A stretch of 64,000 nt of DNA from a virus: IMG/VR virus record IMGVR_UViG_2822225849_000004, one strand, 5' to 3'. Under the pieces are notes generated by a model. It ran no database searches and was not told the DNA's origin. It was given only the letters and a program-made list of their open reading frames with translations. Below are positions 39,633 to 64,000 of this stretch, piece by piece. Every line of letters begins with the position of its first letter. Position 1 is the stretch's first letter. The translations under genes and the position numbers were made by a program.

Positions 39633-40100
39633 TTAAAAAGTTCCTGCAGTACGTTCTGTTAAATACTTAGTATCTAAATAACCTAGGTCTTGAACATGTT
39701 GATGTAACTTCTGAAGTAAGTGCTTATCTTTGCATAAAATACTAATATCAAAACCATCAACTATACTCAATAAAAATTCACAATCACTAGTATTAAAATC
39801 TGATGCTGTTCTTATCCATGTTGGGCTGTTTTTTTTCATATCAGGAAAAGCACACATTGTTAAGAAGACTAAAAAGTATTTTTTGTTTATTAAAGTTTGT
39901 TTTAACTTATTTTCAGTTATGAAACGTTCGTCGCCGAGTAATTGTTCAAATGTAAAGTTATCATGAGAGTCTTTTAGGTATATTTCGGCAGTATCTATTT
40001 GCCAAATGAAATTGTTAGAATTAAAAAGTTCTAGTAATTTTAATATGGACAAATTAAAGTTTTCATCTTCTGGAGCGTGAAAATGTATTCCTATATTCAT
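39633..40100 (-). CDS. DUF2691-like protein
   Basis: FLTMCAFP...DFNTSDCEFLLSIVDG.DISILCKD pattern; RBS aggggag. Confidence 0.65.
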   Translation of the reverse strand: MNIGIHFHAPEDENFNLSILKLLELFNSNNFIWQIDTAEIYLKDSHDNFTFEQLLGDERFITENKLKQTLINKKYFLVFLTMCAFPDMKKNSPTWIRTASDFNTSDCEFLLSIVDGFDISILCKDKHLLQKLHQHVQDLGYLDTKYLTERTAGTF

Positions 40101-40335
40101 TGTATGCTAGTCTCCCTTTATTTATATTATTTAAGGAAATTGCCAGCTCTTAATTGAGGCGGCTTTTTTTGTTTTAACCAATATTTTCTTGAAAACCCCT
40201 TCTAAAAGAACGTTATTATCATATAAGAGTCAGGTGTTTTAAGTCTTTTAAGACTGATTCCCCGGTTGCTGTGAAATAGAAAAATAATAGACTATATTCT
40301 GAGGGAATCTAGAATAGAGTCTGTTATTATAGGTT

Positions 40336-42171: not shown

Positions 42172-42449
42172 GATAAAGTCCTCCTTGAGGTGTATTAAGA
42201 AATATACATATCCTTATTATAAGGAATAATATAACTAGTTTGGAATAAGGAAAGAGTTAATCCATATTTTTCATAAAGTATTGTGTTTCAATATATGATT
42301 AATGAGGCAAAATTTCAACATAATACATAAGAAATACCTAGAAAAATTGCCCATTAAGTGTTAGATGTACTTTAATACTTAAGGCAATTAATACTGCTTT
42401 TAATAAATTGTAAATAGAGTTATAAATAAATTTGATAGTTTTTTGATAA

Positions 42450-42776
42450 TTAACTTATCCATTTTTTTATTTTATCTAATAAACTATCCTGATAGCGTTC
42501 CCTAAATATCACAGTAGTTTTTACGTCTTCTTTTTTTAGAATTCTTGTGTAGTTATTGTTAGGGTTATTTTTGTCTATTTTCTTTAAACGTGGGTGACTA
42601 TATCCTAAAATTTCAAGTTTATTTAGACTTTTTATTAGATATATTTTTGCATCATCATCTTGTTTAATATAATATGCATCTTTACCTAGTGGATCAGAAA
42701 GGTAAGGGATGTATATTTCAAGTACAAGTATCGTACTTACTAAAAGCGAAACTATAATAAAACCTAAAATTTCATT
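42450..42776 (-). CDS. Small membrane-anchored hypothetical protein (not in supplied track)
   Basis: Open 108-aa frame read manually: MKILGFIIVSLLVSTILVLEIYIPY...KKWIS*. Confidence 0.4.
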   Translation of the reverse strand, partial: NEILGFIIVSLLVSTILVLEIYIPYLSDPLGKDAYYIKQDDDAKIYLIKSLNKLEILGYSHPRLKKIDKNNPNNNYTRILKKEDVKTTVIFRERYQDSLLDKIKKWIS

Positions 42777-42849
42777 AATATTAGATATACTTAACGATCT
42801 ATCCGAAAATATATAGAAATATAATATGGTGACTGGTGTTATGAATATT

Positions 42850-44420
42850 GCGAAAATAATAATGTGAAGTATTTGGATAAGTAAAATTTTCTCTTATTGC
42901 AGCCTTTGAAGAATACAAAGAAGGAGCGAATGAGAAACGATTAATAGAAGCGAGAACTGAAACGAGAAATAACTTTAGAACATGGGCGAAGGAAATCCAA
43001 AATAATACCTTAAATAAAAAAGAGGAATTGTTAAAGAAAATACACGATAAAGAGTTGGAGAATATAAATAATCGTATTAATTCATTAAGAAACGAAGAGA
43101 TGCTCCAAAGTAAACAATCAAAGTCATTATTAGAGTTACAGAGTAGAATTGACAGTATAACAAAACGAATAAATGAAAATTTATAAGAGATTTGGATTTG
43201 GGCTAATATCCCTCTCGTCTCTTTATATTCCATTTATTAGGACTTGCTGTGACATCAACAAGCAAAAAAACTTGTATAAATGGTTTCCAAAACAACGAAT
43301 GAAAATTGGAATACCTGTCCAGATTTTCTTGTTGTTTTAATTTATTTTGGGATCAAAAAATTGGGAAACATCATTGAAGGGGGTGAATGATGGAGATTTT
43401 AAAATACTTGGATAGTTTTTTAAGTCAACTTGATTCTTATATAGCTCAAACAAATGGTAAAATAAACTTGCCAAGAAATATTCCAAATTCAAAGCGAAAT
43501 AACAGAAAGAATATCAAGATATTCTAAGAGTAAAGCGAATTTTACGGGGTTTTCCGAAATGCTAATATACCAATCTATATCGTATTATTATTTAATTGAA
43601 ATAAAAAATGGGGAAATCAAAATAGAAGCAGGTAAAAAGTATTTGGGAAAGAGAAGTTTATTTAAGAAGGTAAAACGGATTTATGTAGAAACAGAAGAAC
43701 CGAAGCCCCAACATCCTGATATAACCATTGAAAAGATAAAAAGATATTTCTTTTATTATCTATAAAAAAACAAATAGGTTATAAAGATTCAAAGCCAGAA
43801 GACATATACAGCAGCACTGTAAAGGAATTGTTGTTAAGAGATATAAAATGGAAAGAAAAGGTTGATAATCTTAATATTGGGGATAAGATACCATTGCCAA
43901 TACAAGATATTAACCACATAGAAAACTTGTATGAGAAATGCGGTTATTTTAAAGCAGTTACTATTTATTATAATAAACCTACAAAAGATAATATTGAATG
44001 GCTTAACCGTATATAAGGAAAAGTATCTTTGGTGTGATTATATCTCCTTACAGGATAACGGAGAGAAATCATTTATAGATTTGTTAGATAAAAAAGTGAA
44101 TTTAAAAAAGATATGTTCTATTTGATGAGGCCTCTGTTATATTGGGCGCATGAATGGGATCTATTTAGATGAAAAATTCAAGATAATAAACTATGGAAAG
44201 TTAGAAGAGTTGTTTTCAAATATCAATAAACAAGGTTTAGGACCCTTTATACAGAACACACTACAGATAAAGGGGACGAGAATGCTACAGTTATTCATGT
44301 GTATGTTGATGTTTTAAAAGAGAAAAGACGAAAAATAGCTGGGGCTGCGCATAAGAACTAAATTTTTATAGATACCTTAATATAGTGATTGTGGGATTAT
44401 CATAACTGATTTATATAAAC
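42850..44420 (+). pseudogene. Degraded gene fragments
   Basis: Several short + strand frames with protein-like composition (e.g. coiled-coil FEEYKEGANEKRLIEAR...; 43559-44125 pieces) separated by stops and frameshifts. Confidence 0.45.
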
Positions 44421-45466
44421 AGAATTCTATTAAAAAAGCGGTGGTTATTGTAATTTCTGTGACCATTTGTGACCACAAAATTATGCTCTTAACTGTCTGT
44501 ATAATGGTGAGAGATAGTTATTTTGCTATCAGGAACTATACTGATTTTCGATGGAACTATTGTTTTAGTAGGTATTGTTACAGTAGAACTTGAGGAAGGA
44601 AAAAGAATAGCTCTTCTATGATTAGTTGTAAGGGATTCGATATTAGCACATCGAGTTCTTTTTGTTATATGTATTATTAAATTAATATAATGTTTTATCA
44701 CTGATACAGTAAAATTTATTTCTGCATATTAAGTCTCATATAATTATGAAAAGCGGGAGGCTCTTATCTCAAAACATTTAATGAAATATTGCTTTTATTA
44801 TTTACTGGGATTATGGAAGCAGTTCACAGTATTTTTTATTATCTGGTTTAGTAGTCATATGTTTGTATATAGATAGGGGGAAACTAGCTGTGAGAGGTTA
44901 TTTTTTATAGTAGAATATAGACAACCTTATTCAATAACATGCATGGATATAGGTGAAATTCAACTGAATGAAAGAATATGAAGAAATAAACATTACAATA
45001 ACTAGAATCCCATTTATAGGAATCAGCGGACATAATGAGAGAGAATTTTAATTCTTTTGAGTATAAAAACTAATAAAACCCGTCTTTTATGTTGTTGAAT
45101 ACAACAACATAACTAGGTTAGTGTGGGTTGATATTCAGCAAAAAATATTATGTGCGTTAGGGAGGTAGTATATACGGGTACGCATGACAATGATTTCAAG
45201 AGAGTAGTACCTAAACTCATTGTCATGCTCTTTTAGTATTGATGTGGTATGATTTTCCTGTATAAAATTACAATGGAAAGGCTATTAGTAAATTGGCAAA
45301 AATGAAAGCTAATAATTGGTGCAATGCAAGAGATATGTATCAAGAGTAGACTTGTTCAAGAAAGATATCCAATTCACTGAGTGGCAAGATATTTTATTTT
45401 TATACACTGTCTTGAGCAAGGAGGTTAACATAAACAAAAAGCATATTAATATTTGGGGGCTAAAAC

Positions 45467-46660
45467 ATGACTAATCGTGATGAATTTTCTGCATCTGTTA
45501 AAAAGAAACTTGCAAGTCGGGCAGGGTATGTATGTTCCTTTCCTGCTTGTGATGAGTTAACAATTGGTCCAGCTAGTAATGAACAAGGAACAGTAATGAC
45601 AGGAGAAGCAGCGCATATTACAGCTGCGTCACCCAATGGACCAAGATATGATCCAATGATGTCACCTATAGAAAGAAAATCAGTATCAAATGGAATATGG
45701 ATGTGTAAAAAACACGCGAGAGTAATAGATGTAGACAAAACTCAATATACGGTTCCAGAACTCAAAAAGTGGAAGGAAAGTCACGAAACGAAAATTAAGT
45801 ACCAGCAGCAGGGGATTAAAATTAATAAAGGATTCCTAACAAAAATAAAAATTTCTAATATAGCAAGAATACATGGAGAGGAAAATGTTGATTTAGGAAA
45901 AAACACTTTACTATTTGGTAATATGAGTACAGGAAAAAGTATAATATGTGAACTTATAGCAGGATTAGAAAAAAACCAATTATTGTGGCGTTGGAAACAA
46001 AAACGGAATGTTGGGAATACATATGCAGAAATTGAAATTTTCGATGGGGAAATAACTTCCTTCATGGTATATGTTTATGAAAAACAAATAAGATATTATG
46101 TTAATAGCAATGAGTACCCATTAATTAATCCCACGTATAGTGTAGTGTATTTAAATGAAACATTTAGATACAACTCGGAGGCTTCCAAACCATTTATTGA
46201 GCAATACGCAGATTATTTTAATTTAACCGTGAATGACATGTTAAATGTAATTAATTTAAAGGGGGATATTGGCATAAAATTAGTAAGTGATTATTATTTT
46301 AAAGATAATGATTTATTAGTTCGTGAGTATCCATCACAAACAAATGCACTTGATTATAAGGCCCTTTCAAGTAGTGAAAAACAACGAATAAATATTGAGA
46401 TAGGTAGTAAAGTAGCACATGTACTTTCTAACTCTAAACCAACAATTTTGATTATAGAGCATGATAGTTTTTCTAGCTTTGATAAATCTAATAGAGAAAC
46501 ACTATTTACAACAATAAATAATAGTAAGCTGCCTTATCAAACCTTGTTAACTGTATATAGTTATGATGATACTATTGAAATGAATAACTTCAATATTTAT
46601 GAGCATAAGGAAATAAACGGAACTGTCAAAATAATGAAAAATAATTCAAATGATATTTAA
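45467..46660 (+). CDS. HNH endonuclease fused to an ABC/SMC-like ATPase domain; candidate defence protein
   Basis: N-terminal CSFPAC...GEAAHI...NGIWMCKKHARVID; then GNMSTGKS (Walker A), ALSSSEKQRI (signature-like), ILIIEHD (degenerate Walker B). Confidence 0.75.
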   Translation: MTNRDEFSASVKKKLASRAGYVCSFPACDELTIGPASNEQGTVMTGEAAHITAASPNGPRYDPMMSPIERKSVSNGIWMCKKHARVIDVDKTQYTVPELKKWKESHETKIKYQQQGIKINKGFLTKIKISNIARIHGEENVDLGKNTLLFGNMSTGKSIICELIAGLEKNQLLWRWKQKRNVGNTYAEIEIFDGEITSFMVYVYEKQIRYYVNSNEYPLINPTYSVVYLNETFRYNSEASKPFIEQYADYFNLTVNDMLNVINLKGDIGIKLVSDYYFKDNDLLVREYPSQTNALDYKALSSSEKQRINIEIGSKVAHVLSNSKPTILIIEHDSFSSFDKSNRETLFTTINNSKLPYQTLLTVYSYDDTIEMNNFNIYEHKEINGTVKIMKNNSNDI

Positions 46661-46824
46661 CATTAAAAGCTTTTTTTGTTGTTAGTAGATAATTTTTTTA
46701 GTAGCCATACATATCGATATATGAAGTCAATCTAATAATAAAGGGCGATTTCTTTCTTACGGTTCCCATTTTTTCAGCTCATATTGAAGGGATTATTGCT
46801 CAAGGTTTTGCACATCATGGGAAA

Positions 46825-47091
46825 ATGGGTGGGAATAAACTTCAAAAATATTTAGAAACATTATTAGTTAATGATGGGGTTTTTTCATTTGACAAACAGA
46901 TTCAAACATTTTATTTAAATACTATTTTAATTGGGTTTGAACACGGAGAATCACTAAAGTCTAAATTAAGTAGAAATGCCATTCTACATGGAGCGGATTT
47001 GGAATATGGTACCGAAGAAAACTCGTTAAAAAGTATTTTGATTTTTGATTACATTCTTGATAGATTAACTGAAAATAGCATAACCGAGTAG
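46825..47091 (+). pseudogene. C-terminal fragment of a HEPN-like protein
   Basis: SRNAILHG..YGTEENSLK contains an RxxxxH motif; only 88 aa and lacks a plausible N-terminus. Confidence 0.4.
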
Positions 47092-48368
47092 GTTGGAGTT
47101 CATAATGAGCATACATATTAGGTTGCAGCTAGTTGCATTATATCTAAATTGATAATGATATTAATGATTTTATAAATATAGACAGAGGGCAATTTATAAT
47201 CCCTCTGTCTTAGTTATTTAAATCGAGAGAGTAAACGTAAAGCTACTACTAGAAAACCATGATGACAGCAACATCGAATGTTTCAAAAGGGGTGTAAAGA
47301 TTAGTGAACGCTTTAAGCATTTATGAAAATGGTGTGGATCTTAACGAACTTTACTACGATCAGGTAGGTGACATCGCACTTGATAACAGGGGCTTAGTTT
47401 TACAAGGAAAGATAGACGAAAGTGCAATCGATTTACAATCATTAGCAACCATGAACGTAATCGACTTCCTACTCGCTATCTCACCAATTAAAAAGAATTG
47501 CTACTTAGAAAACGTAAGCGTATGTTCGCTATACTAATCGACTACTTCGGCTTAGAAACATTATTTGATCGTATTTGGTATTGGGTAGTGTTTGGCGCAG
47601 GTGAGGCTTTATTTTTAATCGACATGGCGATTGCGTTTATTTTATAAATCTGAGAAGGTGAGTCATTAGGATCTTGTATTTTAGGCATATACATGTGCCA
47701 CGATCGAAGTCGTGCGTTAAGGTAGCATGGAGATATGAAACGGCAACCTCGTAGTTGTGTGTGTTCAGCATCGGCCTATAATTAAAAAGAAGTTAAAATA
47801 TATCCGCTTATATCATAAGAACTATCATATACCTACACATCGTTCGTAAATAGCCTACAAGATGATTTTACGGGACAGGAAGAGGTCAAAGAACAAAGAA
47901 AGACGCGTAAGTAAAGCAAATTCATTAAACCAGAGAACATGAGTGAGTAATACATTGAGGCGTAATTAAACTTAGAGCAAGCCTACATATGTTTTATGTG
48001 AGCTTTATTTTAATCTACAGGCAAGTCTTTCGGCAATAAGCCTTCCTCGCTCAACTCTTTTATAGATTTTTTATCAAAATATTTTTTAAATAATCTTGTA
48101 TCAATTTTACCACTTGTAGTTGTAAGCAAATTTTTCAACTGTAAACCAGACAAAGGCTTTTCAGCTTGTAAAAAACTATCGTAAGCAGAGTCTACTTGTT
48201 TTTTTATAGTTGCTGATTTAATAATAAGCATCTTTACTTCTGCTTAATCTATTTTCATTTATATAACAATGAAATACGTGTACAATATATATAATAAAGG
48301 GAACTATAAATGATTAATAATGAAAAAGAGTTTCGAGTCGATTGATGAACTATACGGAGGGAATTTGA

Positions 48369-51083
48369 ATGGTTGAAGAAAGTAGAAGTGAATTATTAAA
48401 TAAAGCATTGGCATTTGTTAAAGAACATGAAAATGATAGTGATGAAAAACAACAAGCTCAAATGTGGGTAAGAGATTTTTTAGAAACATTTGGAGTGCCA
48501 TATCAAAAGATTAAGTTAGGTTTCGAATGGCGTGTAAATATAGATGGGAACACTAAATTTGTTGACCACTTGCTAAACGGAACATTATTAATAGAAATGA
48601 AGTCTAGAGACAAAGACTTGGATAAAGCAAAGTCACAAGCTTATCGTTATGTAATGAATTTATCTAATGAGGACTTACCAAAATATGTGATGCTTTGTAA
48701 TTTTAATCGTATCCGTTTATATGATCTTGCTAGTGATAATGTATGGGAGTTCTCTGTAACTGATTTATCTAAATATATAGATTTATTTGGTTTTTTAGTA
48801 GGGAAACAAATAAACGTAGAAATTCCAAAAAACCCTGTAAATGAGCAAGCCGCTAAGATGATGGAAGCTCTTCATAAAAAGTTACTAGAATCCAAGTATC
48901 CACGTAACTATGCAGATTTACTTATGACACGTATTATATTCTGTTTATTCGCAGATGATAGCGGTATTTTCCAGCAAAATCAGTTTACAAATTATTTGAT
49001 GAACGAAACTAGAGAAGATGGGAGCGATCTTGTAGATCGTTTAGCTGTTCTATTCCAAGTATTAAACACCCCTGAAAATGAGCGTTTTCAAGCTGATGTA
49101 TTAAAAAAATTTCCTTATATCAATGGTGGCTTATTTGAACATCCTCAACTTACTGGATTACCATTAACCACAGAAATACGAACGCACTTGATTGAAACTT
49201 CAATACTTGATTGGAGCCGAATCTCACCAGTAATCTTTGGTTCTATGTTTGAAGCAGCTATGGATGATACTCGTAGACATAATTTAGGAGCGCACTATAC
49301 ATCTGAAATCAACATCATGAAGGTTATCAATAGTTTATTCCTAGAAGATCTAAAAAAGGAATTTGAGCACCTTTGCACATTGAAACACGGTCGTGAAAGT
49401 AGATTAAAAGAGTTTCATGATAAACTATCAAATTTGAAATTCCTCGATCCGGCGTGTGGTTCAGGAAACTTTCTTATCGTTGCATATCGTGAACTAAGAA
49501 GACTAGAACATGAGGTTATTGATGAGATTGTTCAGGGACAAATGGTACTTGATATTAATGAATTAATTAAAGTTGAGGTAGCACAGTTCTACGGAATAGA
49601 GATTGTACCTTACGCTGTTTCTATTGCTAAAGTTGGCTTATGGCTTATGGATCATTTGATGAATGTTGAAGCCAGTGAATTATTCGGACGATTATTCTTA
49701 CGATTACCATTGCATGCGGGGGCGAACGTAGTAAATGCTGATGCACTAGAAGTAGATTGGCAAGAAATTATTCCAACGGATGAATTGGATTACATTTTAG
49801 GAAACCCTCCGTTTTTAGGCGCAAAAAAAATGACTAAAGAAAATAAAGAAACATTAAGTAAAATCGCCCCTAAAATGAAGGGCATTAAAAATTTGGACTT
49901 TGTTGCTGGCTGGTTTATTAAGTCAGCTAGATTAATGAATGAAAATCCAAATATAAAATCCGCTTTAGTTTCAACAAATTCCATTGCACAAGGAATTCAA
50001 GCGACATTGTTGTGGAGAGAGCTGCGAACTTTAAACATCAATATAAATTTTGCCCATCAGACTTTTGTTTGGGATAATGAAGCAAATGTTATGGTAGTTA
50101 TAATCGGTTTCTCAATGCATAATTCAAAAGAAAAACATTTATTTACCTATCCAAACATGAAAGATGCTCCTATTATTAATGGTGTAAATTCTATTAATGA
50201 ATATCTAATTGATGAGCAATTTTTATTAATAGATCCTAATACTAGAACTCAAGTTTCGGGTTATCCACCAATGACTTTGGGAAGTCTTCCTTTAGATAAT
50301 CAACAATACATAGTCTCGGAAGATCGAAAAGATGAAATCATTAAAAAATACCCTGAGATGGTAAGCTATATTCACCCTTACTTTGGCAGCCAGGAACTGC
50401 TTGAACCTAACAAGCATAAAAGGTTTATTATTTACACTAAAGATATTCCGTTTAAATTACTAACGAAAATGCCTGATATACAAAAACGTGTAGAAAACGT
50501 GAAGGAGTTCAGGCTGACTGTTGCTGAAGAGGATAGAAAATTAAGCAAAACACCTTTGGTATTTAAGCGTGATAGGTATTGGAAACAAGATGTACTGATT
50601 GTTCCTAGAACGAGTTCAGGCGCAAGAGATTACGTTCCAATGGGCTATTTTGATTCAAGTGTAATTGTTAGTGATGCTGCTTATCAAGTAGCTGATGCTT
50701 CTTTATTATTGTTTGGCTTCCTAGAATCTAAAATGCACACTGTATGGATTAATCTGGTTGCAGGGAAGCTAAAATCAGATTTTAGGTATTCTAATACCCT
50801 TTGTTACAATACTTTCCCAATACCAAATGTTAATGATAAAGATCAAGAAAAGATTAAAAATATATCTAAACAAATATTAGATACAAGAGAAAAATACTTC
50901 AAGGAAGGAAATAGTCTTCGGGATTTATATGGTAGAATTATGCCAACCGATCTACAGTTGTTACATGAGAGGTTGGATAAAGCAATTGAAATTTTGTATA
51001 GAAAAGCAGCATTTAATTCGGACGTGGAAAGAGTAAAGCATCTAATCAAACTATATCAAAAACTAGTTAGTAAAAAAATATAA
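48369..51083 (+). CDS. MmeI-like type IIL restriction-modification enzyme (endonuclease + N6-adenine MTase + TRD)
   Basis: LLIEMKS nuclease motif; GAHYT; FLDPACGSGNFL (motif I); ILGNPPF (motif IV); C-terminal RYSNTLCYNTFPIP. Confidence 0.9.
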   Translation: MVEESRSELLNKALAFVKEHENDSDEKQQAQMWVRDFLETFGVPYQKIKLGFEWRVNIDGNTKFVDHLLNGTLLIEMKSRDKDLDKAKSQAYRYVMNLSNEDLPKYVMLCNFNRIRLYDLASDNVWEFSVTDLSKYIDLFGFLVGKQINVEIPKNPVNEQAAKMMEALHKKLLESKYPRNYADLLMTRIIFCLFADDSGIFQQNQFTNYLMNETREDGSDLVDRLAVLFQVLNTPENERFQADVLKKFPYINGGLFEHPQLTGLPLTTEIRTHLIETSILDWSRISPVIFGSMFEAAMDDTRRHNLGAHYTSEINIMKVINSLFLEDLKKEFEHLCTLKHGRESRLKEFHDKLSNLKFLDPACGSGNFLIVAYRELRRLEHEVIDEIVQGQMVLDINELIKVEVAQFYGIEIVPYAVSIAKVGLWLMDHLMNVEASELFGRLFLRLPLHAGANVVNADALEVDWQEIIPTDELDYILGNPPFLGAKKMTKENKETLSKIAPKMKGIKNLDFVAGWFIKSARLMNENPNIKSALVSTNSIAQGIQATLLWRELRTLNININFAHQTFVWDNEANVMVVIIGFSMHNSKEKHLFTYPNMKDAPIINGVNSINEYLIDEQFLLIDPNTRTQVSGYPPMTLGSLPLDNQQYIVSEDRKDEIIKKYPEMVSYIHPYFGSQELLEPNKHKRFIIYTKDIPFKLLTKMPDIQKRVENVKEFRLTVAEEDRKLSKTPLVFKRDRYWKQDVLIVPRTSSGARDYVPMGYFDSSVIVSDAAYQVADASLLLFGFLESKMHTVWINLVAGKLKSDFRYSNTLCYNTFPIPNVNDKDQEKIKNISKQILDTREKYFKEGNSLRDLYGRIMPTDLQLLHERLDKAIEILYRKAAFNSDVERVKHLIKLYQKLVSKKI

Positions 51084-52317
51084 ATATTTAAATGCATCAC
51101 TAATTAATTAGTTATATGAAGATCCATAAAACTCTAATTAATTTGCTGTTTAGATGATTGTTTTTAAGATTTAAAATAAATTCACAATAAAATATCAATT
51201 TCATTTTTAATAGAAAAAAGGGAAATCGTATCAGTGTATTTTTACAAATATGATTTCCCTTTTTATTTAGGTTATCAAGAAAGTTTTCAGATTGAATCGT
51301 ATAGACTTTTAGAAGTTAAGTTGATGATTTGTATTTGATCTTCATAAAAATCAACAGTGAGCGTTAGAGGGCTTTTGATATAATTTGAGATTATGAAAGT
51401 TACTTTTCACCTCAATAGTCTACATGAATTCCTTTTTTATCTATTAGATTGTAGTATTCATCATATAAAATATCCAATAACATCCATTTTTCTTCATTAC
51501 TTAAAATTTGGATAGCTTCTACTACATCCTTAGCAGTAATCTCAATTTCATCATAAGTCCTTCTGCATTTTATCATTCCATCTCCCAAATTAATCGCTTC
51601 TTAATTTGTTTGATAAGAATTTCCTTTATTGATTGTACTGATTATTATGAGGATTAAAAAATGTTAATTTTCATTTTACGTTCGTCGTCTTCTCTATATA
51701 AGTAATATCAGGAGGGATTAAATTGCTTCCAACAAAAGAACAGTTGACAAAATATTTATCTGATAAGATGACAAACCAAGATATTACGAAGATTTACAAC
51801 ATAACTTTCCAAGAAATAATTTAACTTATAAAGAAATATAAGGTTGATCTAAATGAACTTCGAAAGGTAAACAAATATATTGTCTATGGGCATTGGCTTG
51901 CGCCTTATATTTTTATATTTTTATATTTTTATATAATAAAATACAATTTGTAACTATAAGGTAAATACTGTTAAAATATAATTACAATGGAGGTGTTTAG
52001 ATTGAACAAGATGACTTTGGTCTTACTTTTGTTTCAGTAGGTATTACATTCTTACTGCTATCATTAACAGTATCGTTACCAACTGTATCATGGGCAGTTT
52101 CACTTGGTACAAGTATTGTACTGAATTTCACAGGTACTGCAATTTTAATGCAGTTTATCAAAACAACAAAAGAGAGTATATTGTGAAGTGACAATAAATT
52201 CATTTAAGAACAAATAAAGTTGTTTAACGAAGATGGATATAACATTAGGTTTTTATGCCATTTTTCATTTCTTTGTATAATAAGAAAAGAATATTTCGAT
52301 ATTCAGTAATTGAATAA

Positions 52318-53802
52318 ATGGGCGGTAATTTTAACTTACTTGGGGGAATGAAGGTGCAACACGATATTCGATTGAAAATTATTGACTTAAATTTAGGTCT
52401 AAAAATATTAAAAGGATTTGAAGATAATTGGATTTATGTAAAGATGGTGTCATTTGCTTCAAATGACAATGATAATTGTGCTTATTTTAAATTTAAATTA
52501 AAAAATTTTGAGATTTTTGATAATAACTTATTCTTTTATGGCAATGAAGATGAGGATAGATTGTTTTTAAACAAAAAAAATATTTTACAAACAGAATGTT
52601 CCTTTAATGAAGATGAAATCCTTTTTATAATGAATTCTTCAGATGGAATTATAGAGGTATTTATAAAAAAATATCTTCCTATTTTAAATGTAAGATTAGA
52701 AGAGTTAACTAACCCAAGGAGTAATATAATTATTACCGAAGGTCAAACGGATTGGAAACATTTAAAACACGCCCTGAAGAAGTTAAATGAAAACGATATG
52801 TTTAGTGAGTTAAATATATCATTTTTGGAATACGATCAAAAAACAGACATGGGCAATTTTACTTTAAAAAAAATTCGTGACTATCATGCACTATTGGAAA
52901 ATGAGTATTGTAAAATATTTATTTTTGATAGAGATGTTGATGAGATTAATAATGAATTTGGAAATAAGGAAGTGCTCTATCATGGAAATAACGTTTATTC
53001 TATGTTATTGCCAGTACCAGAACATCGTAAAAACACACCTAATATTAGTATTGAACACTATTATTTGGACAAGGATTTATTTAGAAAAGATAATAATGGC
53101 CGAAGACTATATATGGTAAAAGAATTCGATAAAATTACGAAAAAACATCTTCTACTTCCTAATTTATATGCTACAAAGATAAAAAAAGAACATAGTGATA
53201 TACGTATTTTGGATGAAAGAATTATGAAGTACGAAGAGCAAGAAATAGATTTTTCAAAAATAGCTCAAAACGGTATAAATATTGCCTTAAGTAAAAGTAA
53301 TTTTACTAAATGTATTGAAAATGAAGAATTTAAAGAAGTAGATTTAACAGTATTTACACCAGTATTTTTATTGATTGAAGAGATTTTAAAAGATCATATG
53401 CAAAAAAATTATGGGGAAATAGAGATAAGTAAAAATGTATATTTGAAAGAATATCCTTCAGGTATAAATGTTTTATCTTTATATTCGGAAATAAAAGAAG
53501 AACTATTACTTCTTTATAAAGGTACAAATTCATTACGTATTGCACCTTTTGTATTAAAAAAACAGAATAAATTAATAATAAATGTAGAAGCTTATATTAA
53601 TGAAGAATATCGTCAAATTATAGCTTTTCCTATAGATATCAATCCTAGCTTAAAGAATTTTGTAATAAATAAAAATAATAATAGATTTAATCGTATAGAG
53701 CTTCATTTATTTAACCCGAATAGAAAAATAAGTTCCTCAAGGGAAATTCTGAAAGACGATATTTCAGGAATGCTCTTATTAAGAGAGCTTGATATGATAT
53801 AG
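52318..53802 (+). CDS. TOPRIM-domain protein of the retron/OLD effector type, with unknown N- and C-terminal domains
   Basis: IIITEGQTDWKHL, IFIFDRD (DxD), ISIEHYY..D...GRRLY, LSKSNF motifs. Confidence 0.7.
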   Translation: MGGNFNLLGGMKVQHDIRLKIIDLNLGLKILKGFEDNWIYVKMVSFASNDNDNCAYFKFKLKNFEIFDNNLFFYGNEDEDRLFLNKKNILQTECSFNEDEILFIMNSSDGIIEVFIKKYLPILNVRLEELTNPRSNIIITEGQTDWKHLKHALKKLNENDMFSELNISFLEYDQKTDMGNFTLKKIRDYHALLENEYCKIFIFDRDVDEINNEFGNKEVLYHGNNVYSMLLPVPEHRKNTPNISIEHYYLDKDLFRKDNNGRRLYMVKEFDKITKKHLLLPNLYATKIKKEHSDIRILDERIMKYEEQEIDFSKIAQNGINIALSKSNFTKCIENEEFKEVDLTVFTPVFLLIEEILKDHMQKNYGEIEISKNVYLKEYPSGINVLSLYSEIKEELLLLYKGTNSLRIAPFVLKKQNKLIINVEAYINEEYRQIIAFPIDINPSLKNFVINKNNNRFNRIELHLFNPNRKISSSREILKDDISGMLLLRELDMI

Positions 53803-56453: not shown

Positions 56454-57330
56454 GTGCTTTTTATTTTGGAAAGGAAGAAAGAAATGTATATTCAAGATTA
56501 TATTAAAGCTGTTCACAATGGTAATCCATTCTGGTTTAAGAATGAAGTGAATAATTATGAAAATCAAAAACGTGTTTTAGACATTATTCGTAAAAGAGAA
56601 TATCTAGATGGGAAACACGCTATTTTAAATCGTGGGGGGGAAGAACTATAACGGAAAACCATACGAACCACGTAAAATTTTACTTCAATATGGTAAATTA
56701 ATTGTCAATTTGGAGGCAACGTATCTACTGAAAAATCCTGTAACAGTGATAGGAGATGAGAAAATTATAGTCGATTTTAAGAAGGTTTATAAGAAGGGGA
56801 AATATGACAAGGTTGATTTTGACATTCTTATTCATATTGTCAAATACGGTAACGTATATGAATATGTTTACGTAAATAAAAAAGGGCAATTTACAATGAT
56901 GAATTAGAAATGGTTGCCAGAAACATCAATGAAGATTCTTTATCAGTTGGCAGACATGAAGGCAGGTATTAATTAGAAGTTTATGCGTGAAGGTTTACGA
57001 GAACGCTTTGAGAAGATTGCAACCTTGTTAGAGCGAATGGGTAAATCATATGAAGAAGATGATATTGATTCATTAGACATTGTGTTCCATTATGCTAGTC
57101 CAGTGAATGAGAGTGATGTTATTGATAACCTTATAAAGTTACATGGTAGGAGTGTAATTAGTGATAAGAGTATTATTGACATTACTCCATATATTACAGA
57201 TACATATGTTGAGTTAGAACGGATTAAACAGCAAGCAACAGCACGTAAGGTTGTGGAGCAACCTAATGTATCTAATGAAGGTGCAGACAAAGAGCATGTG
57301 ACGGATAAGAGCGAAGAAGTAACAAAGTAA
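56454..57330 (+). pseudogene. SPP1 gp6-like portal protein, frameshifted and internally deleted
   Basis: Pieces REYLDGKHAIL / YGKLIVN..ATYLLKNPV...KYGNVYEY / GLRERF...DIVFHYASPVNESDVI...TPYITDTYVELERI are the N- and C-terminal ends of a portal. Confidence 0.75.
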
Positions 57331-58885: not shown

Positions 58886-58966
58886 ACCACAATGCTGGGC
58901 TCTATAAAGTATTTTGAAAATGCTATTGTGCAAGACAAATTTATAGAAAACCCTTGGTAATTTGGA

Positions 58967-58995
58967 TTGACAATACAGAGAAAATATGACAATTT
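58967..58995 (+). promoter_or_regulatory. Sigma-A promoter for the ncRNA-SLATT-RT cassette
   Basis: Perfect TTGACA (58967-72), 17-bp spacer, extended -10 TGnCAATTT; predicted start site ~59001-59002, the first base of the RNA stem. Confidence 0.55.
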
Positions 58996-59001
58996 AATAT
59001 A

Positions 59002-59121
59002 AGGTAAGGAAAAGTTTTCTATTCGACTTTGTACTTATATACAAGGTATTACTAATCAATTACATAAAATGATTCCATTAGGAATATTAATCGTAACCAT
59101 TTGTAAACTCTTTCCTTACCT
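59002..59121 (+). ncRNA. Predicted RT-associated structured ncRNA
   Basis: Closing stem aggtaaggaaaagttt (59002-17) with aaactctttccttacct (59105-21, one bulge); internal hairpins 59027-46 and 59072-85. Confidence 0.75.
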
Positions 59122-59151
59122 AATTAATACTAAATAGTCATAGGAGTTAAA

Positions 59152-59799
59152 ATGATAAAATATAAGAGAGTAACGTATAAGAGGGTACCTAGTAAAAAAA
59201 GTAAAATAATCCTAACAGATGTTGAGGAAGACATCATTAAACTCAGAGATAATAAAATCTATGTAACAAAGAAATCAAGAATGATAGCAGAAGCAAGAAT
59301 GAATGATAACCATGTTTTCTCTCAATTCTTAGTTAACTATTATACTTTTGTTGTTTTAGCACTTTCTATTGCGATATTAATTATTGAAGATAAGGATAAA
59401 ACGATTTCTTTATTAACAGTTATTGCTTCAGTTGGCTTATTTGGAGTTTCTTTGTTTCTTTCAAATATGAGTTATAAAGAAAGGGCTTTAAAGTATAAAG
59501 AATCGTATCTGAGTTTAGGTGAGTTAGAATCTAAACTAAGTCTTTTGCTAAGGAAGAATAATTTAAATTCTACTCAAATGATTGATGTGTTTGAGAAATA
59601 TCAGCAAGAATATCATAATATATTATCAAAAACAGATAATCATGACGAAATAGATTATATAAAAGTCAAGATTGATCAAAGTCCCAATCAGGATTTTATC
59701 ATTAAATATTATAAATATTTAATAACAAAGAATTTTTATCGCTTTTTATTTGTAATTTTCCCCATTTTACTCTATATTTTACCGAAACTAGGTGTTTAA
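59152..59799 (+). CDS. SLATT-family (SLATT_5-like) transmembrane effector
   Basis: YVTKKSRMIAEAR-TM-TM-YKERA..Y..L..L...TDNHDEIDY pattern plus a C-terminal TM. Confidence 0.8.
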   Translation: MIKYKRVTYKRVPSKKSKIILTDVEEDIIKLRDNKIYVTKKSRMIAEARMNDNHVFSQFLVNYYTFVVLALSIAILIIEDKDKTISLLTVIASVGLFGVSLFLSNMSYKERALKYKESYLSLGELESKLSLLLRKNNLNSTQMIDVFEKYQQEYHNILSKTDNHDEIDYIKVKIDQSPNQDFIIKYYKYLITKNFYRFLFVIFPILLYILPKLGV

Positions 59800-61168
59800 G
59801 ATGACAGAAAGTGTTCGTTTAGAGGATTTTTTTTCAATAAACTCTTTACATGATACCTTAAAAAAATATATAAAGTTTAATACTGCTATTGGGATTGATA
59901 AAATGACATATCAATCCTTTTTAAATCAAAATGATGAACAAATACGAATAATTAATAAGGGAGTTTTAAATGGCACATATAAATTTACTCCTTATAGAGA
60001 ACATCTAATTATTAAAAGTAGGGATTCTGCACCACGATTAATTTCAATACCAACTATTCGGGATAAGTTAGTATTAAAATCTTTGCACATTGTATTAAAA
60101 GATATTTTTAAAAATATAGAGCAAAAGTTGCCGCAAGCACACATACAAGAAATGAAAAATACATTAAAAGATTATGATTATTTTATAAAATTAGATATCT
60201 CTAATTTTTTTGGGGGTATTAAGCATGGAATTCTTTTTAATGAACTTGCCAAAAAAATAGAGGATGATGTTGTAATAAATTTAATTAAGAAATCTATTAC
60301 AACGTTAACCGTATCAGATGATAATAAAAGAGATGACATAATCACACAAGGTGTTCCACAGGGATTGCCCATTTCGAATATATTGGCTAACATATATATT
60401 AGTGGTTTAGATGAAAAATTGCGTGAAGAAGCCCATATAAAATATATACGTTATGTTGATGATATTTTAATTCTATGCAAAAAAAACGATTTTTCTAAAG
60501 TGTATAGAGAAATTAAGTATGAGATAGAAGGGATTTATAATTTAAATTTAAATGAAAAAAAATATAAACATGGATTAATTAAGGATGGATTTGATTTTTT
60601 AGGTTACAGAATTGAACAAATAAAAGAGAACAGAGTAGGTTTAACTGTCAGAGAAGATAATAAAAGACGGCATGAAGATTCTATAGTTAAGATTTTCACT
60701 AATTACAAATTTAATAAGGACAAGATAAAACCAGAGCAATTCATATTTAAATTAAATAATAAAATAACAGGTTCAATTAGTGAGAAAGTCGAAGGTAATT
60801 CCACAAGAGAATTTAAGTACGGATGGTTATTTTATTATTCTCAAATGGATGATACTGGTTTTCTATACCATTTAGATTGGCTTGTAAAAAAATTATTAAA
60901 GGAATTTCAATTTAACCATATTAATCCTCAAGATATAAAAAGTTATTTTACAACATATTATGAGATAAAATATAATATCAAAAATACTAAGTATATACAT
61001 CGCCCCGATGAGTTAACACACAAAGAACAAAAAGAATTATTAATAAAGGTATTTAATATACATTCATCAAAGTTAAGGGATTCTCAAGAAATTGAAAGAT
61101 TATATTATAAATTTGTTTATAAACCTATTAGGGATTATGAAAAAGATATACAAAAACTGTTGTCTTAA
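59792..61168 (+). CDS. Defence-associated reverse transcriptase (DRT10/UG17-like); likely start ATG 59801
   Basis: AIGID, PRLISIPTIRDKL, KLDISNFF, GVPQGLPISNILANIY, YIRYVDD, FDFLGY; C-terminal YGWLFYYSQMDD; no maturase/HNH or Cas1 domain. Confidence 0.9.
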   Translation: MFKMTESVRLEDFFSINSLHDTLKKYIKFNTAIGIDKMTYQSFLNQNDEQIRIINKGVLNGTYKFTPYREHLIIKSRDSAPRLISIPTIRDKLVLKSLHIVLKDIFKNIEQKLPQAHIQEMKNTLKDYDYFIKLDISNFFGGIKHGILFNELAKKIEDDVVINLIKKSITTLTVSDDNKRDDIITQGVPQGLPISNILANIYISGLDEKLREEAHIKYIRYVDDILILCKKNDFSKVYREIKYEIEGIYNLNLNEKKYKHGLIKDGFDFLGYRIEQIKENRVGLTVREDNKRRHEDSIVKIFTNYKFNKDKIKPEQFIFKLNNKITGSISEKVEGNSTREFKYGWLFYYSQMDDTGFLYHLDWLVKKLLKEFQFNHINPQDIKSYFTTYYEIKYNIKNTKYIHRPDELTHKEQKELLIKVFNIHSSKLRDSQEIERLYYKFVYKPIRDYEKDIQKLLS

Positions 61169-61175
61169 TCACAGT

Positions 61176-61210
61176 AAGAAAGTGTCCAATTACAGGACAC
61201 TTTTTCTTTT
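61176..61210. terminator. Bidirectional terminator between RT and convergent integrase
   Basis: aagaaagtgtcc / ggacactttttctt inverted repeat with T-run. Confidence 0.75.
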
Positions 61211-62228
61211 ACAAATTATTAATTATACTGTGTTTATTATGCTGAATAATAATATCCTTACTTGTCATATTGACACACTTTTTCACCATCTCAATTGATG
61301 AATGACCTAGAATTTTTTGTAACGTCATAATATCACCATTGTTGAGTAAGTAATATTTTGCAAATGTATGTCTAAGGTATGAGGTGACACTCTGACACCT
61401 TTGATTCTTGCACCCTCACCCATATACTTTTAATCGCTGTCTAAATCGTGCAGGGTCAACAGTGTTGCCATAAACAGTTACAAATATATAGGTTGTTTCA
61501 AATTCCTCTATTTCAACAAATAGTTCTCTTAATAGTTTACTTGTCTTTTGAGTAAATGGTACATAACAGGTTTTGCGTTTTTTTGTGTTAGTACCTTTTA
61601 ACTCAATTACATTCGTTTTGAAATCAATGTCCTCTTGTTGAAGATTTAATGCTTCACTAATTCGCATACCTGTATCAGTAAGCAACATCATTAATACATA
61701 ATCTCTAAAACTTGCATATGTTCGTTGGTCTGGTTGTTTAAGTAAGGTTTTCAACTAGTCAATGGACAATGCTTCTATATTATCTTGCGTTCCTTTTAAT
61801 TATTTGATTTTTGTAAATGGATTTGTTTGTACATATTCTTCTTTAACGAGGAAGTTGTAGAATGCTTTCATATGTTTCATGATAGTATTTATATAAGAAA
61901 CTGAAACACCAACGGGTTTATATTTTTCCTTAACGCAATAATTATTTTTATGTTTAACATGGTCATTCTTCAAGTGATGTAAAAATTTTTTAATAGTATT
62001 TGTATCGAGTGAGTTAGTGGTTACGTCTTCATGATGCTCTTCTAAGTATCGCTGAAACACTAGAAAGTAACCGTTCTTATTCTCAAGTGTTCATGTTGCA
62101 AGCCCTTCTGCATCTTTTGCGAACATATTGATGTTAAATAACTCTTGAAATGTATAAGTTTCAATCTTTGTAACTTCAATGCTTGTACGCCCTAACTTTG
62201 CTTTACCTCTTTTACCTGTTCTAGACAA
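61209..62228 (-). pseudogene. Tyrosine integrase, multiply disrupted
   Basis: Fragments KDAEGLA, LLTDTGMRISEAL, then out-of-frame VSPHT.RHTFAK...LQKILGHSSIEMV; in-frame stop near 61755 and several frameshifts. Confidence 0.85.
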
Positions 62229-62395
62229 AATAAAACGCCTCCCTATATCGGTAATTTGGTTTACCGTATAAGAAGACGTGAATGACTTGCAACCTAAAAA
62301 GTAAACGACCGCAACACTAGGGTAACATTTGATGTGCAAAGGATAAAACCTTAACACTTACAAATCCTTGTAGAATAAGGTCTCTTAAACCTGTC

Positions 62396-62468
62396 TGATC
62401 CCGACTGGCCCCGAACCATCGATCTACACCCTGTCAATGTGGCGCTCTCCTAGTTAAATTACGGGGAG
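62396..62468 (-). pseudogene. Degenerate full-length tRNA-Val(GAC)
   Basis: Reverse complement ctccccgtaatttaactaggagagcgccacattgacagggtgtagatcgatggttcggggccagtcgggatca; GAC loop kept but acceptor, D and anticodon stems are mismatched. Confidence 0.8.
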
Positions 62469-62572
62469 TAACTACTGTTCAGTCTTCAAACCTAATCCAC
62501 AAAATCTATTAATCTACACCCAATTACTTCCTTCTTTTCTCCTCATATTCTATAATTAATCTATAAAATTAA

Positions 62573-64000
62573 ATGGGGGTAATTTCCAAAATGAAGCTTC
62601 AAATCGTGACCCAAAAAGCTACTGAATTTGAACCCGATATTTCATTGCTTTCTGAAAAAGAATCAGGACGCCAAGAATTCGTAAAACGTTTCCCGTTAGA
62701 ATCCTTAAGAAATCTAACCGTAGAAGAATATGCCAATACTAAAACAAAAAATTGTTTCAATTACTGGCTCGAGCGAAAAAATATATTAGGCGGCATTGGT
62801 GGAGCCAATTCTGCTAAATTCGGTATTTATCTTGCTAAAATTGGTGAGTACTGTAAAAGTTACGGTAAACAAAAAGTGGTATTAAAAGATGAACAGTTAC
62901 AAGAAGAATTTAGAGCTCTAAAAGAGGGTATTTGTGAAGCGATTCAACTTGCAAAGGAAGGCCGCATTTCTGAAATTGTTACATTAAATTTACCAATTTA
63001 TAATATGGTACTGCTAAAAATTTTAAATATTTATGTTCCAGAGAAGTTTTTTAATATTTATTCACCACCAATATTGATTGAGCTTGGGAAGGAATTACAT
63101 ATAAAAGATGAATTGCTTACTCCTCAGAATGCAATTGAGTTGAATCATGCAGTGTTGCATGCTATTAAGAAAGACGATGTTTTTTAGGTTGGTCTAATGA
63201 AAAAATTTCAAGATTTATTTGGGATACATTTTCCGAACGAGATAAATCGCTTGATAAGAGTTTAAACTATTGGTTAGCTGGCCATACATATGGAAAAGAT
63301 CGTTCCATTCAAGATTTTTTATTGAAAAACAATTGCATAGCGATAGGCTTTTTACATGAGGATTTATCATCTTTTCTAGAAGAAGAAAATATTGAAGATA
63401 TCATAGATGAGAAAGAAGAAACACCAGCAGGACAAAAAGCATTAAAGCAATTTTTAAAAATGAAAGAAGGAGAGCTTGTTGCTTTAAAAACATCTTTTAC
63501 TCGTAAGGTTGATGGGAAGACAAGATCAGTGTTACGAGTTAGTGCTGTTGGAAAAATTACTAAAGATACTATTGATGGTTATGAATTCTCTGAAGAGTAC
63601 GGACATCTACTTCCTGTTGAGTGGATTAATACTGAAGAGAGAGAGTTCATAGGTTACGGAGGATATCGTAGTACATTAAATGAAGTGAAAAATAAGAATG
63701 TAATTAACTTAGTATTTATGCAGGGAAAGGAAATTAGCAATACGCCCCAAGAATCTAGTGAAGTATTAGATACAGATCCAAGAAACTATGTATTTTTTGG
63801 TCTACCTGGAACGGGGAAAACATATCAAATTGTTGAACGTGCTCTTGAATTAATTGATAAAAGAACATATGAGGAACTAAAATCAAATGGACGAGAGGCA
63901 TTGCAACAAGAATTTTCACGTTTAACTAAAGAAGGGAACATTCATCTCGTGACATTCCATCAGTCCTATGGCTATGAAGATTTTATAGAAGGATTGAAAT
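62573..64000 (+). pseudogene. mcrB: McrB-like AAA+ GTPase of a type IV restriction system, frameshifted at T6 63180-63185; runs off the window
   Basis: First frame stops at TAG 63185-87. The frame from 63187 is open to the window end and contains FFGLPGTGKT and VTFHQSYGYEDFIEGL. Confidence 0.8.

What the first reader, a model, noticed from the sequence alone, without database searches (positions are those of the whole stretch)
58967..61210. Complete promoter-ncRNA-SLATT-RT antiviral cassette intact inside a dead prophage relic
Seen: a sigma-A promoter, a 120-nt self-closing structured RNA, a SLATT membrane effector, a translationally coupled YVDD reverse transcriptase and a terminator. All are uninterrupted, while the neighbouring integrase, portal and tRNA have decayed. 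Established: an ncRNA + SLATT + RT arrangement is what is described for DRT10/UG17, and SLATT also occurs with some DRT9/UG28 relatives. Inference: this is a functional Bacillus member of that group kept under selection. The ncRNA would be missed by standard annotation.
Basis: partly seen in the sequence, partly recalled or inferred. Interest (0 to 1): 0.85.

Follow-up and report, generated by a model that had tools for sequence, protein, structure and literature searches.

The report
Intact Bacillus DRT10 (UG17) defence cassette
This is a complete copy of a known anti-phage system (DRT10/UG17: a small structured RNA, a membrane protein and a reverse transcriptase) in a Bacillus cereus-group genome, a well-preserved new member of a family first described in 2025-26 rather than a new kind of system.

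Summary

- **Promoter:** it is conserved in relatives (TTGACA, a TRTG "-16" element, a weak -10).
- **RNA:** a 121-nt structured RNA lies at 59000-59120.
- **SLATT_5 gene:** 59152-59799.
- **RT gene:** it starts 1 nt after the SLATT stop (59801-61168) and carries YVDD and a C-terminal serine.
- **Terminator:** a strong intrinsic terminator follows.

The RT matches the PADLOC RT_UG17 model end to end (464 bits; next model 150). The RNA fold is supported by covariation in Bacillales relatives. A model built from it finds unseeded relatives only upstream of SLATT, and nothing in 150 other Bacilli genomes.

Against a 95%-identical B. mycoides copy, the RNA is 121/121 identical. Synonymous sites differ by about 12%, and dN/dS is 0.13-0.15.

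The neighbouring integrase and portal are truly broken. No tRNA remnant was found. The cassette sits in a defence island beside an intact-looking prophage, so "dead prophage relic" is only partly right.

DRT10, its Bacillota subtype (UG17-C) and its ncRNA are already published, so this is a new member of a known kind. The template and repeat product are predicted only. No expression data were found.

The parts
58895..62242 (.). Unit shared at ~95% identity with a Bacillus mycoides contig (L082): promoter, ncRNA, SLATT, RT, terminator and integrase remnant. The flanks differ in the two genomes.
   Evidence: blastn window vs L082; junctions read; per-segment identities.
58967..58972 (+). -35 hexamer TTGACA
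   Evidence: Read. The same hexamer lies at the same distance from the RNA in 10 relatives.
58985..58995 (+). TATG (TRTG '-16'/extended -10 element) followed by the weak -10 hexamer CAATTT. The predicted transcript start is about 59000-59003 (inferred).
   Evidence: TRTG plus xAxxxT is conserved in all relatives. The role of TRTG in Gram-positive sigma-A promoters is background knowledge. No 5'-end data exist.
59000..59120 (+). DRT10-type ncRNA. Elements: closing stem P1 (59003-59017 with 59105-59120, C59110 bulged); conserved single-stranded UUUCUAUUCG; hairpin SL2 (59026-33 with 59040-47); loop A (59048-58, containing the invariant CUAAU); weak SL3 (59059-61 with 59068-70); hairpin SL5 (59072-76 with 59081-85); loop B (59086-59104).
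   Evidence: MFE and z-score. Covariation on a MAFFT alignment: 82% paired against 39-51% for slid partners, 19 pairs changed on both sides, 0 of 500 shuffles. CM R1 scores 86 bits here, and it is the only hit in the window. The RNA is 121/121 identical to L082.
59086..59104 (+). Loop B, the predicted template loop (19 nt, between SL5 and P1). Candidate A-B-A' layouts are UAA-UCG-UAA (59088-96, 6-nt unit, 2-nt linker after SL5) and GUAA-CCAUUU-GUAA (59093-59106, 10-nt unit).
   Evidence: The position is homologous to the loop that keeps AACU-AUUC-AACU in relatives, where A and A' change together. The patterns in this window alone are at chance level. This is an inference from PMC12632851 and 10.64898/2026.06.29.735271.
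59048..59063 (+). Alternative template candidate in loop A: AUUAC-UAAUCA-AUUAC (11-nt unit).
Evidence: It is at chance level by shuffling, and its A' overlaps SL3.
59152..59799 (+). SLATT_5 membrane effector gene (215 aa), with RBS AGGAG at 59142-46.
   Evidence: Pfam PF18160 2e-25 and PADLOC RTasSLATT 1e-46. Hydrophobic helices at about residues 58-79, 85-106 and 195-215. dN/dS 0.13 against L082.
59801..61168 (+). UG17 reverse transcriptase gene (455 aa plus stop). The start lies 1 nt after the SLATT stop, with RBS AGGTG at 59790-94. YVDD is at 60452-60463 and the terminal Ser455 codon at 61163-65.
   Evidence: PADLOC RT_UG17 1e-139, positions 1-427 of 429. Pfam RVT_1. YVDD and the C-terminal Ser are conserved. 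The tree places it in a Bacillales SLATT-RT clade. dN/dS 0.15.
61174..61212 (+). Intrinsic terminator: core stem 61178-87 with 61195-204, 7-nt loop, then a U-run. It lies back to back with the 3' end of the integrase remnant.
   Evidence: Fold -14.2 kcal/mol, z -5.5, 0 of 200 shuffles as good.
61213..62357 (-). Tyrosine integrase pseudogene, with four in-frame stops (TGA, TAA, TAG, TGA) and a compensating frameshift pair around the ...SPHTL/RHTFA motif.
   Evidence: PHROG integrase hits on the fragments. Three-frame reading and codons read. L082 has a further ~400-nt deletion here.
56632..57330 (+). Two fragments of a phage portal gene (context only, not part of the cassette).
   Evidence: phrog_64 positions 116-198 and 413-519 of 547. 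A separate intact portal lies at 6760-8127.

Best explanation
The stretch 58967-61212 is an intact DRT10 (UG17, class 2 UG/Abi) anti-phage operon of the Bacillota SLATT-RT type (UG17-C-like).

Shown here:
- A conserved sigma-A-type promoter precedes a ~120-nt structured RNA, which is followed without a terminator by a SLATT_5 gene and a tightly coupled UG17 RT gene, then a terminator.
- The RNA fold, both ORFs, the YVDD site and the C-terminal serine are conserved and under purifying selection.

Inferred from the E. coli systems:
- The RNA, probably cut out of the operon's 5' leader, binds RT protomers.
- The RT primes on its own terminal Ser455 and repeatedly copies a short A-B-A' template in the loop between hairpin SL5 and the closing stem.
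- The product is a protein-linked tandem-repeat single-stranded DNA. The best guess is (CGATTA)n from UAAUCG-UAA. The alternatives are (AAATGGTTAC)n, or (TGATTAGTAAT)n from loop A.
- A phage-induced change in the amount or protection of this DNA activates the SLATT membrane protein, which stops the infected cell.

The cassette travelled with a now-dead tyrosine integrase as a ~3.3-kb unit and sits in a defence island next to a prophage.
For: - RT family: RT_UG17 464 bits over the full length, against <=150 for all other RT models.
- Effector: SLATT_5/RTasSLATT.
- Coupling: the stop-to-start gap is 1 nt, as in relatives.
- RNA pairing: cognate P1 strands pair at a mean of -16.8 kcal/mol, against -10.1 non-cognate.
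- RNA covariation: 82% paired against 39-51% for slid partners, and 0 of 500 shuffles. On the wider CM alignment, 26 of 32 pairs change on both sides.
- RNA model specificity: CM R1 finds unseeded L003 (87 bits) and L002, L004, L005 and L006, all upstream of SLATT. It gives one hit in a whole 2.9-Mb genome, at its UG17 locus, and none in 150 other Bacilli genomes.
- Promoter: conserved in all relatives.
- Catalytic and priming residues: YVDD, and a terminal Ser in 31 of 35 homologues. This matches the C-terminal Ser/Tyr priming requirement (10.64898/2026.06.29.735271).
- Selection: dN/dS 0.13-0.15 and a 121/121 identical ncRNA at dS ~0.125.
- Phylogeny: a 98%-supported Bacillales SLATT-RT clade, separate from the Pseudomonadota clade.
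- Literature on the mechanism.
Against: - There is no transcript evidence. No RNA run holds the ncRNA, and the one RNA contig covers only 61167-61300.
- The -10 hexamer is weak, and the generic scan misses the promoter.
- This copy's loop B has diverged from the AACU-AUUC-AACU of its clade.
- Its A-B-A' patterns are no more than chance gives: 0.80 for >=3 nt, 0.38 for >=4 nt.
- The selection test rests on a single close relative.
- In the papers read, no Bacillota (UG17-C) system has been tested for defence or cDNA. The mechanism is therefore carried over from E. coli UG17-A systems at ~35% RT identity.
- The published UG17-C covariance model could not be run here.
Confidence: 0.82

Rival explanations
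1. The cassette is an inert passenger. It was acquired recently with the integrase, is still uninterrupted by chance, and is no longer a working defence, for example because the template loop has drifted.
For: The integrase next to it is dead. Loop B differs from that of all other clade members. A-B-A' is at chance level. No expression data were found.
Against: dN/dS is 0.13-0.15 over ~2 kb. The ncRNA has zero changes in 121 nt, where ~11-15 are expected at the neighbouring neutral rate. DRT10 tolerates many template sequences (PMC12632851).
Confidence: 0.08
2. It is true phage cargo: a prophage moron used for superinfection exclusion and packaged with the phage, rather than part of a chromosomal island.
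For: The window is an IMG/VR provirus record with CheckV completeness 89%. Phage replication, packaging, tail and lysis genes fill 1-39.6 kb. A few other IMG/VR contigs carry UG17 near their ends.
Against: About 19 kb of defence genes and broken phage genes lie between the lysis module and the cassette. No full-length UG17 RT occurs in 50,697 GenBank phage genomes, and only 14 occur in 2.9 million viral contigs. The same unit lies in a different, non-phage context in B. mycoides (RES, KAP NTPase). No att repeats were found.
Confidence: 0.12
3. The RT belongs to another retroelement class (group II intron, retron, or DRT9/UG28) and the upstream RNA is an intron, msr-msd or poly-U template RNA.
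For: By sequence, the nearest solved structures are group II intron and retron-type RT cores (E ~1e-19). Sources label some homologues 'retron-type'.
Against: Those matches cover only the RT core (residues ~6-270). RT_UG17 covers 4-455 at 464 bits, and Drt9 scores 53 bits. There is no maturase domain. No group II intron, retron or other Rfam family is found at E<=1 in 56-64 kb. A SLATT_5 partner and a C-terminal Ser are present.
Confidence: 0.02

Closest known systems
UG17-C subtype of DRT10 (Sanchez-Nieto et al. 2026, bioRxiv 10.64898/2026.04.29.721553; representative Exiguobacterium sp. AT1b)
   Same: Both are Bacillota. Both have the SLATT-then-RT order with adjoining stop and start, a SLATT_5 partner, and a short structured ncRNA upstream of SLATT that only subtype-specific covariance models detect.
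   Different: Membership of their subtype C was not tested against their tree or model. The placement rests on taxonomy, gene order and my own tree. The paper reports RNA-seq support for its representative, and none was found for this locus.
Eco3DRT10 / Eco1DRT10 (UG17-A; Tang et al. 2025, PMC12632851; Ramirez et al. 2026, 10.64898/2026.06.29.735271)
   Same: Both are tripartite: ncRNA, SLATT and RT. Both have a closing stem with several small hairpins, a 19-nt loop between the last hairpin and the closing stem, YVDD, and a C-terminal hydroxyl residue (Ser). Some copies have a tyrosine recombinase next door.
   Different: RT identity to enterobacterial relatives is only ~34-36%. The RNA sequence is not alignable. 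Here ~10 conserved nucleotides (UUUCUAUUCG) lie between the closing stem and the first hairpin, where Eco3 has 4. The template and product are unknown, and defence is untested.
DRT9 / UG28 (poly-dA synthesising RT with ncRNA)
   Same: It is a class 2 UG RT, protein-primed, with an ncRNA of similar overall shape according to PMC12632851.
   Different: The Drt9 HMM scores only 53 bits. DRT9 lacks an obligatory SLATT partner and uses a conserved poly-U template, which is not seen here.
Telomerase (TERT plus telomerase RNA)
   Same: The analogy comes from the literature: repeat addition from a short internal RNA template with a realignment segment and a template-boundary helix.
   Different: Nothing here tests this. 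The bacterial enzyme primes on protein, not on a chromosome end.

Membership tests
DRT10 / UG17 | RT belongs to the UG17 clade of UG/Abi reverse transcriptases | tested here: met
   PADLOC RT_UG17 E 1e-139, 464 bits, profile positions 1-427 of 429. The next model scores 150 bits.
DRT10 / UG17 | Adjacent SLATT (SLATT_5) membrane protein gene, tightly coupled to the RT gene | tested here: met
   PF18160 2e-25 and RTasSLATT 1e-46. The stop is at 59797-99 and the RT ATG at 59801.
DRT10 / UG17 | Structured ncRNA encoded upstream of SLATT, conserved within the subtype | tested here: met
   Covariation. CM R1 hits unseeded relatives upstream of SLATT only, and has no hit in 150 other Bacilli genomes. 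The authors' own model was not available.
DRT10 / UG17 | A-B-A' template in the loop just 3' of a stable hairpin | tested here: inconclusive
   Candidates exist (59088-96; 59093-106), but such repeats arise by chance in 38-80% of shuffled loops. Relatives keep AACU...AACU with matched changes.
DRT10 / UG17 | Catalytic YxDD and a priming Ser/Tyr at the extreme C-terminus | tested here: met
   YVDD at 218-221. Terminal Ser455 is shared by 31 of 35 homologues. The requirement is described in 10.64898/2026.06.29.735271. Priming itself was not tested.
DRT10 / UG17 | RT-dependent tandem-repeat cDNA and phage defence needing all three parts | not testable with these tools
   This needs expression, miniprep-seq or cDIP-seq, and plaque assays.
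UG17-C subtype | Falls in the Bacillota-restricted RT group with SLATT-RT order and matches the subtype C ncRNA model | tested here: inconclusive
   My tree puts it in a 98%-supported Bacillales SLATT-RT clade apart from Pseudomonadota. The reference sequences and model of the paper were not in hand.
Group II intron / retron RT | Maturase/X domain with intron RNA, or msr-msd RNA | tested here: not met
   Pfam finds only RVT_1. No Rfam intron or retron family is found at E<=1.

The most novel reading that the evidence does not exclude
In this Bacillus lineage the RNA may carry realignment (A-B-A') layouts in both single-stranded loops: 59048-63 in loop A and 59088-96 in loop B. If so, the two RT protomers of the 2:1 complex would each make a different tandem-repeat DNA. 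So far this two-product DRT10 has only been obtained with engineered E. coli RNAs. In addition, the promoter-ncRNA-SLATT-RT-integrase block may be a self-contained ~3.3-kb mobile 'defence islet'.
Probability: 0.12. Interest if true: 0.5.

Novelty: new member of a known kind. Interest (0 to 1): 0.3.

Why it matters
DRT10 has been dissected only in E. coli. The Bacillota subtype has been described by bioinformatics and RNA-seq, but in the papers read it has not been tested for defence or product.

This locus gives a compact, apparently selected Bacillus cereus-group example of about 2.3 kb. It has mapped RNA helices, a candidate priming serine and explicit product predictions, and it could be moved into a Bacillus laboratory strain to test whether the telomerase-like mechanism holds in Gram-positives.

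It also shows that the RNA is the most constrained part of the unit: 0 changes in 121 nt against ~12% at synonymous sites.

For annotation, standard pipelines label the RT generically and do not report the RNA.

None of this changes the picture of the family.

Tried and rejected
- **Single-protein locus search:** it found no relatives in genome contigs. The alignment-based search worked.
- **Pattern scan for the RNA core across 596 Gb:** it gave 7 hits in unrelated phyla. By my own estimate about 25 are expected by chance. I discarded them.
- **Rfam:** no family matches the RNA. A 23-bit ctRNA_p42d match on the terminator is noise.
- **tRNA relic:** ARAGORN and Rfam find nothing in the window or in the B. 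mycoides locus.
- **att-type direct repeats flanking the 58895-62242 unit:** none found.
- **RNA evidence:** no RNA run holds the ncRNA. The one metatranscriptome contig covers only 61167-61300.
- **PDB by sequence:** no DRT10 entry matched. The top matches are group II intron RT cores.
- **GenBank phages:** no DNA match to the cassette or to the 55.4-58.9 kb relic, and no full-length UG17 RT.
- **A-B-A' statistics:** not above chance in this copy.
- **Recoding as an explanation for the integrase's in-frame stops:** rejected, because three different stop codons and a frameshift pair are involved.
Full report
**What is there**

The ORF list and the sequence show two same-strand ORFs.

- **First ORF (59152-59799, 215 aa).** It is a SLATT_5 protein: Pfam PF18160 2e-25 and PADLOC RTasSLATT 1e-46. 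It has two central hydrophobic helices and one at the C-terminus.
- **Second ORF.** It starts at ATG 59801, one base after the SLATT stop, behind an AGGTG ribosome-binding site. It ends at 61168.
- **RT family.** It matches the PADLOC RT_UG17 profile over 427 of 429 positions (464 bits, E 1e-139). The next RT model reaches 150 bits and Drt9 reaches 53. The same hit is recovered from the genome record.
- **Other domains.** Pfam sees only RVT_1 and no maturase domain.
- **Terminator.** Downstream, 61178-61204 forms a 10-bp hairpin followed by a U-run (z -5.5).

**The RNA**

The stretch 59000-59120 folds into a closed multi-hairpin shape (MFE -25.5 kcal/mol, z -3.6). Rfam 15 has no family for it.

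I fetched relatives of the RT (1016 proteins at E<=1e-20, mostly Bacillota, the closest at 95% identity in B. mycoides) together with their DNA. In ten Bacillales loci at 55-60% RT identity, the SLATT-upstream region keeps several features:

- invariant single-stranded motifs: UUUCUAUUCG, GGUA, CUAAU, GAUUC...GAAUAU
- hairpins whose sequences differ but still pair

The evidence for the fold is as follows.

- **Closing-stem strands.** Cognate pairs bind at a mean of -16.8 kcal/mol, against -10.1 for non-cognate pairs.
- **MAFFT alignment not fitted to any structure.** My four-helix structure has 82% of cells paired, against 39-51% when partners are slid. Nineteen pairs change on both sides, and 0 of 500 shuffles reach the observed values.
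- **Covariance model R1.** It finds five relatives not used to build it: L003 at 87 bits, plus L002, L004, L005 and L006. Each lies upstream of its SLATT gene. It also gave one borderline hit (L069, 19.7 bits, E 0.22), whose position I did not check. It finds only one site in the window.
- **Wider CM alignment.** Twenty-six of 32 pairs change on both sides. This alignment leans towards the model.
- **Specificity.** In a whole 2.9-Mb genome the only hit is the UG17 locus. In 150 other Bacilli genomes there is none.

**The promoter**

The generic scan misses the promoter. All relatives nevertheless carry TTGAC[AT], 14-15 nt, TRTG, one base, then xAxxxT, ending 7-10 nt before the closing stem.

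From background knowledge, this is the Gram-positive extended -10 ("-16 TRTG") type of sigma-A promoter. No terminator and no second promoter lie between the RNA and the SLATT start (31 nt). The RNA is therefore probably the 5' leader of the operon transcript and is cut out of it. This step is an inference.

**Selection**

The window and a B. mycoides contig (L082) share 58895-62242 at about 95% identity, with unrelated flanks. Within this unit:

| Segment | Result |
|---|---|
| ncRNA | 121/121 identical |
| SLATT | 96.5% identical, dN/dS 0.13 |
| RT | 96.2% identical, dN/dS 0.15 |
| Synonymous divergence (dS) | ~0.125 |
| 72 nt upstream of the promoter | 87.5% identical |
| Integrase remnant | 90.8% identical, with indels |

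At the average divergence, zero changes in 121 nt has probability ~0.003. This supports "kept under selection", although it rests on one pair of sequences.

**RT features tied to the mechanism**

YVDD lies at residues 218-221. The protein ends in ...EKDIQKLLS, and a serine is the last residue in 31 of 35 aligned homologues. The DRT10 literature shows that DNA synthesis is primed on a Ser or Tyr at the extreme C-terminus, and that this placement is a strict requirement.

**Placement**

A maximum-likelihood tree of 86 UG17 RTs puts the window with B. mycoides in a 98%-supported clade of 13 sequences. The named members are Bacillales, and all 13 have the SLATT-RT order. This clade is separate from the Pseudomonadota clade that holds the enterobacterial systems.

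This fits the published subtype UG17-C, which is Bacillota-restricted, has the SLATT-RT order and has its own ncRNA. I could not run the authors' model or tree. Bacillus loci are already in the published UG17 dataset.

**Mechanism**

What is shown here is the anatomy and its conservation. The rest is carried over from E. coli DRT10:

- Two RT protomers sit on a pseudo-symmetric RNA.
- Synthesis is protein-primed.
- A short A-B-A' template just 3' of a boundary hairpin is copied repeatedly.
- A long single-stranded tandem-repeat DNA results.
- The SLATT effector is activated on infection.

By position, the template loop here is 59086-59104. It is 19 nt long and lies between hairpin SL5 and the closing stem. 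In relatives this loop reads AACU-AUUC-AACU. One relative has AACU-ACGG-AACU and another has AAACU-AUUC-AAACU, so A and A' stay matched while B or the length changes.

In the window and in B. mycoides the loop has diverged. There are three candidate templates:

- UAA-UCG-UAA, with a 2-nt linker after the hairpin as in Eco3, which predicts (CGATTA)n
- GUAA-CCAUUU-GUAA, which predicts (AAATGGTTAC)n

Shuffling shows that such repeats are expected by chance (0.80, 0.38 and 0.82). The product is therefore a prediction, not a finding.

**Surroundings**

The window is the minus strand of a 65-kb IMG/VR provirus record with CheckV completeness 89%.

- **1-39.6 kb:** uninterrupted phage genes. These are DnaD- and DnaC-like loaders, small and large terminase, a 455-aa portal, protease, capsid, tape measure and amidase.
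- **39.6-55 kb:** defence genes. These are PDC-S41 (a Schlafen-like helicase), an HNH effector-like protein, a type IIG restriction-modification enzyme and a Toprim protein.
- **Further downstream:** two portal fragments, the DRT10 cassette, the integrase pseudogene and a PD-T4-1-like ORF.

No full-length UG17 RT occurs in 50,697 GenBank phage genomes, and only 14 relatives occur in 2.9 million viral contigs. I therefore read the cassette as part of a defence island beside a prophage. It arrived with its own integrase, which is now dead.

Relatives also sit next to recombinases. An intact tyrosine integrase lies in L084 and L091, and a resolvase in L085 and L087. Tang et al. report a dispensable tyrosine recombinase beside two E. 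coli systems.

**What could not be confirmed**

- The decayed tRNA was not found.
- No evidence of transcription was found.

**Verdict**

The family, its Bacillota subtype and its ncRNA are already published, so this is a new member of a known kind, of modest interest.

Noticed in passing
window 62360-62480 (and L082 3456-3560): A G+C-richer ~110-nt non-coding segment lies just beyond the 5' end of the integrase remnant. A loosely similar segment stands at the same place in the B. mycoides locus. By eye it has tRNA-like stems, but ARAGORN and Rfam give nothing.
   Followed up: partly
window 61213-62357 (-): The integrase pseudogene keeps one reading frame through four in-frame stops of three kinds (TGA, TAA, TAG, TGA). 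It also has a short compensating frameshift pair at the SPHTL/RHTFA motif. The B. mycoides copy has lost a further ~400 nt.
   Followed up: yes
relatives L084-L091, 5' segment vs loop B: In most clade members the invariant 5' segment CUAUUCGAC nearly repeats the loop-B template CUAUUCAAC on the other side of the RNA. This may be the sequence trace of the pseudo-symmetry described for E. coli DRT10 RNAs. The window keeps only the 5' copy.
   Followed up: no
window 39633-53802: A defence island lies between the prophage lysis module and the cassette: a DUF2691 protein, PDC-S41 (Schlafen-like helicase, 376 bits), an HNH effector-like protein (45467-46660), a MmeI-type type IIG restriction-modification enzyme (981 bits), and an orphan Toprim protein resembling the C-terminal part of retron type I-C RT-Toprim proteins. 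Long ORF-free gaps lie between them.
   Followed up: partly
window 62573-63999: A 204-aa ORF matches only the N-terminal half of the PD-T4-1 profile (positions 13-183 of 383). It is followed by an ORF with a P-loop (GLPGTGKT) that runs off the window. This may be another defence gene pair, or a split gene.
   Followed up: no
loci L011, L018, L030, L031, L039, L061: Six UG17 loci, including Paenibacillus and other Bacillota, have the opposite RT-then-SLATT order. Gene order is therefore not strictly tied to phylum.
   Followed up: no
loci L084, L091 (integrase); L085, L087 (resolvase): Close relatives of the cassette are followed by an intact tyrosine integrase or a serine resolvase. This suggests that these cassettes commonly travel as small recombinase-linked units.
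   Followed up: partly
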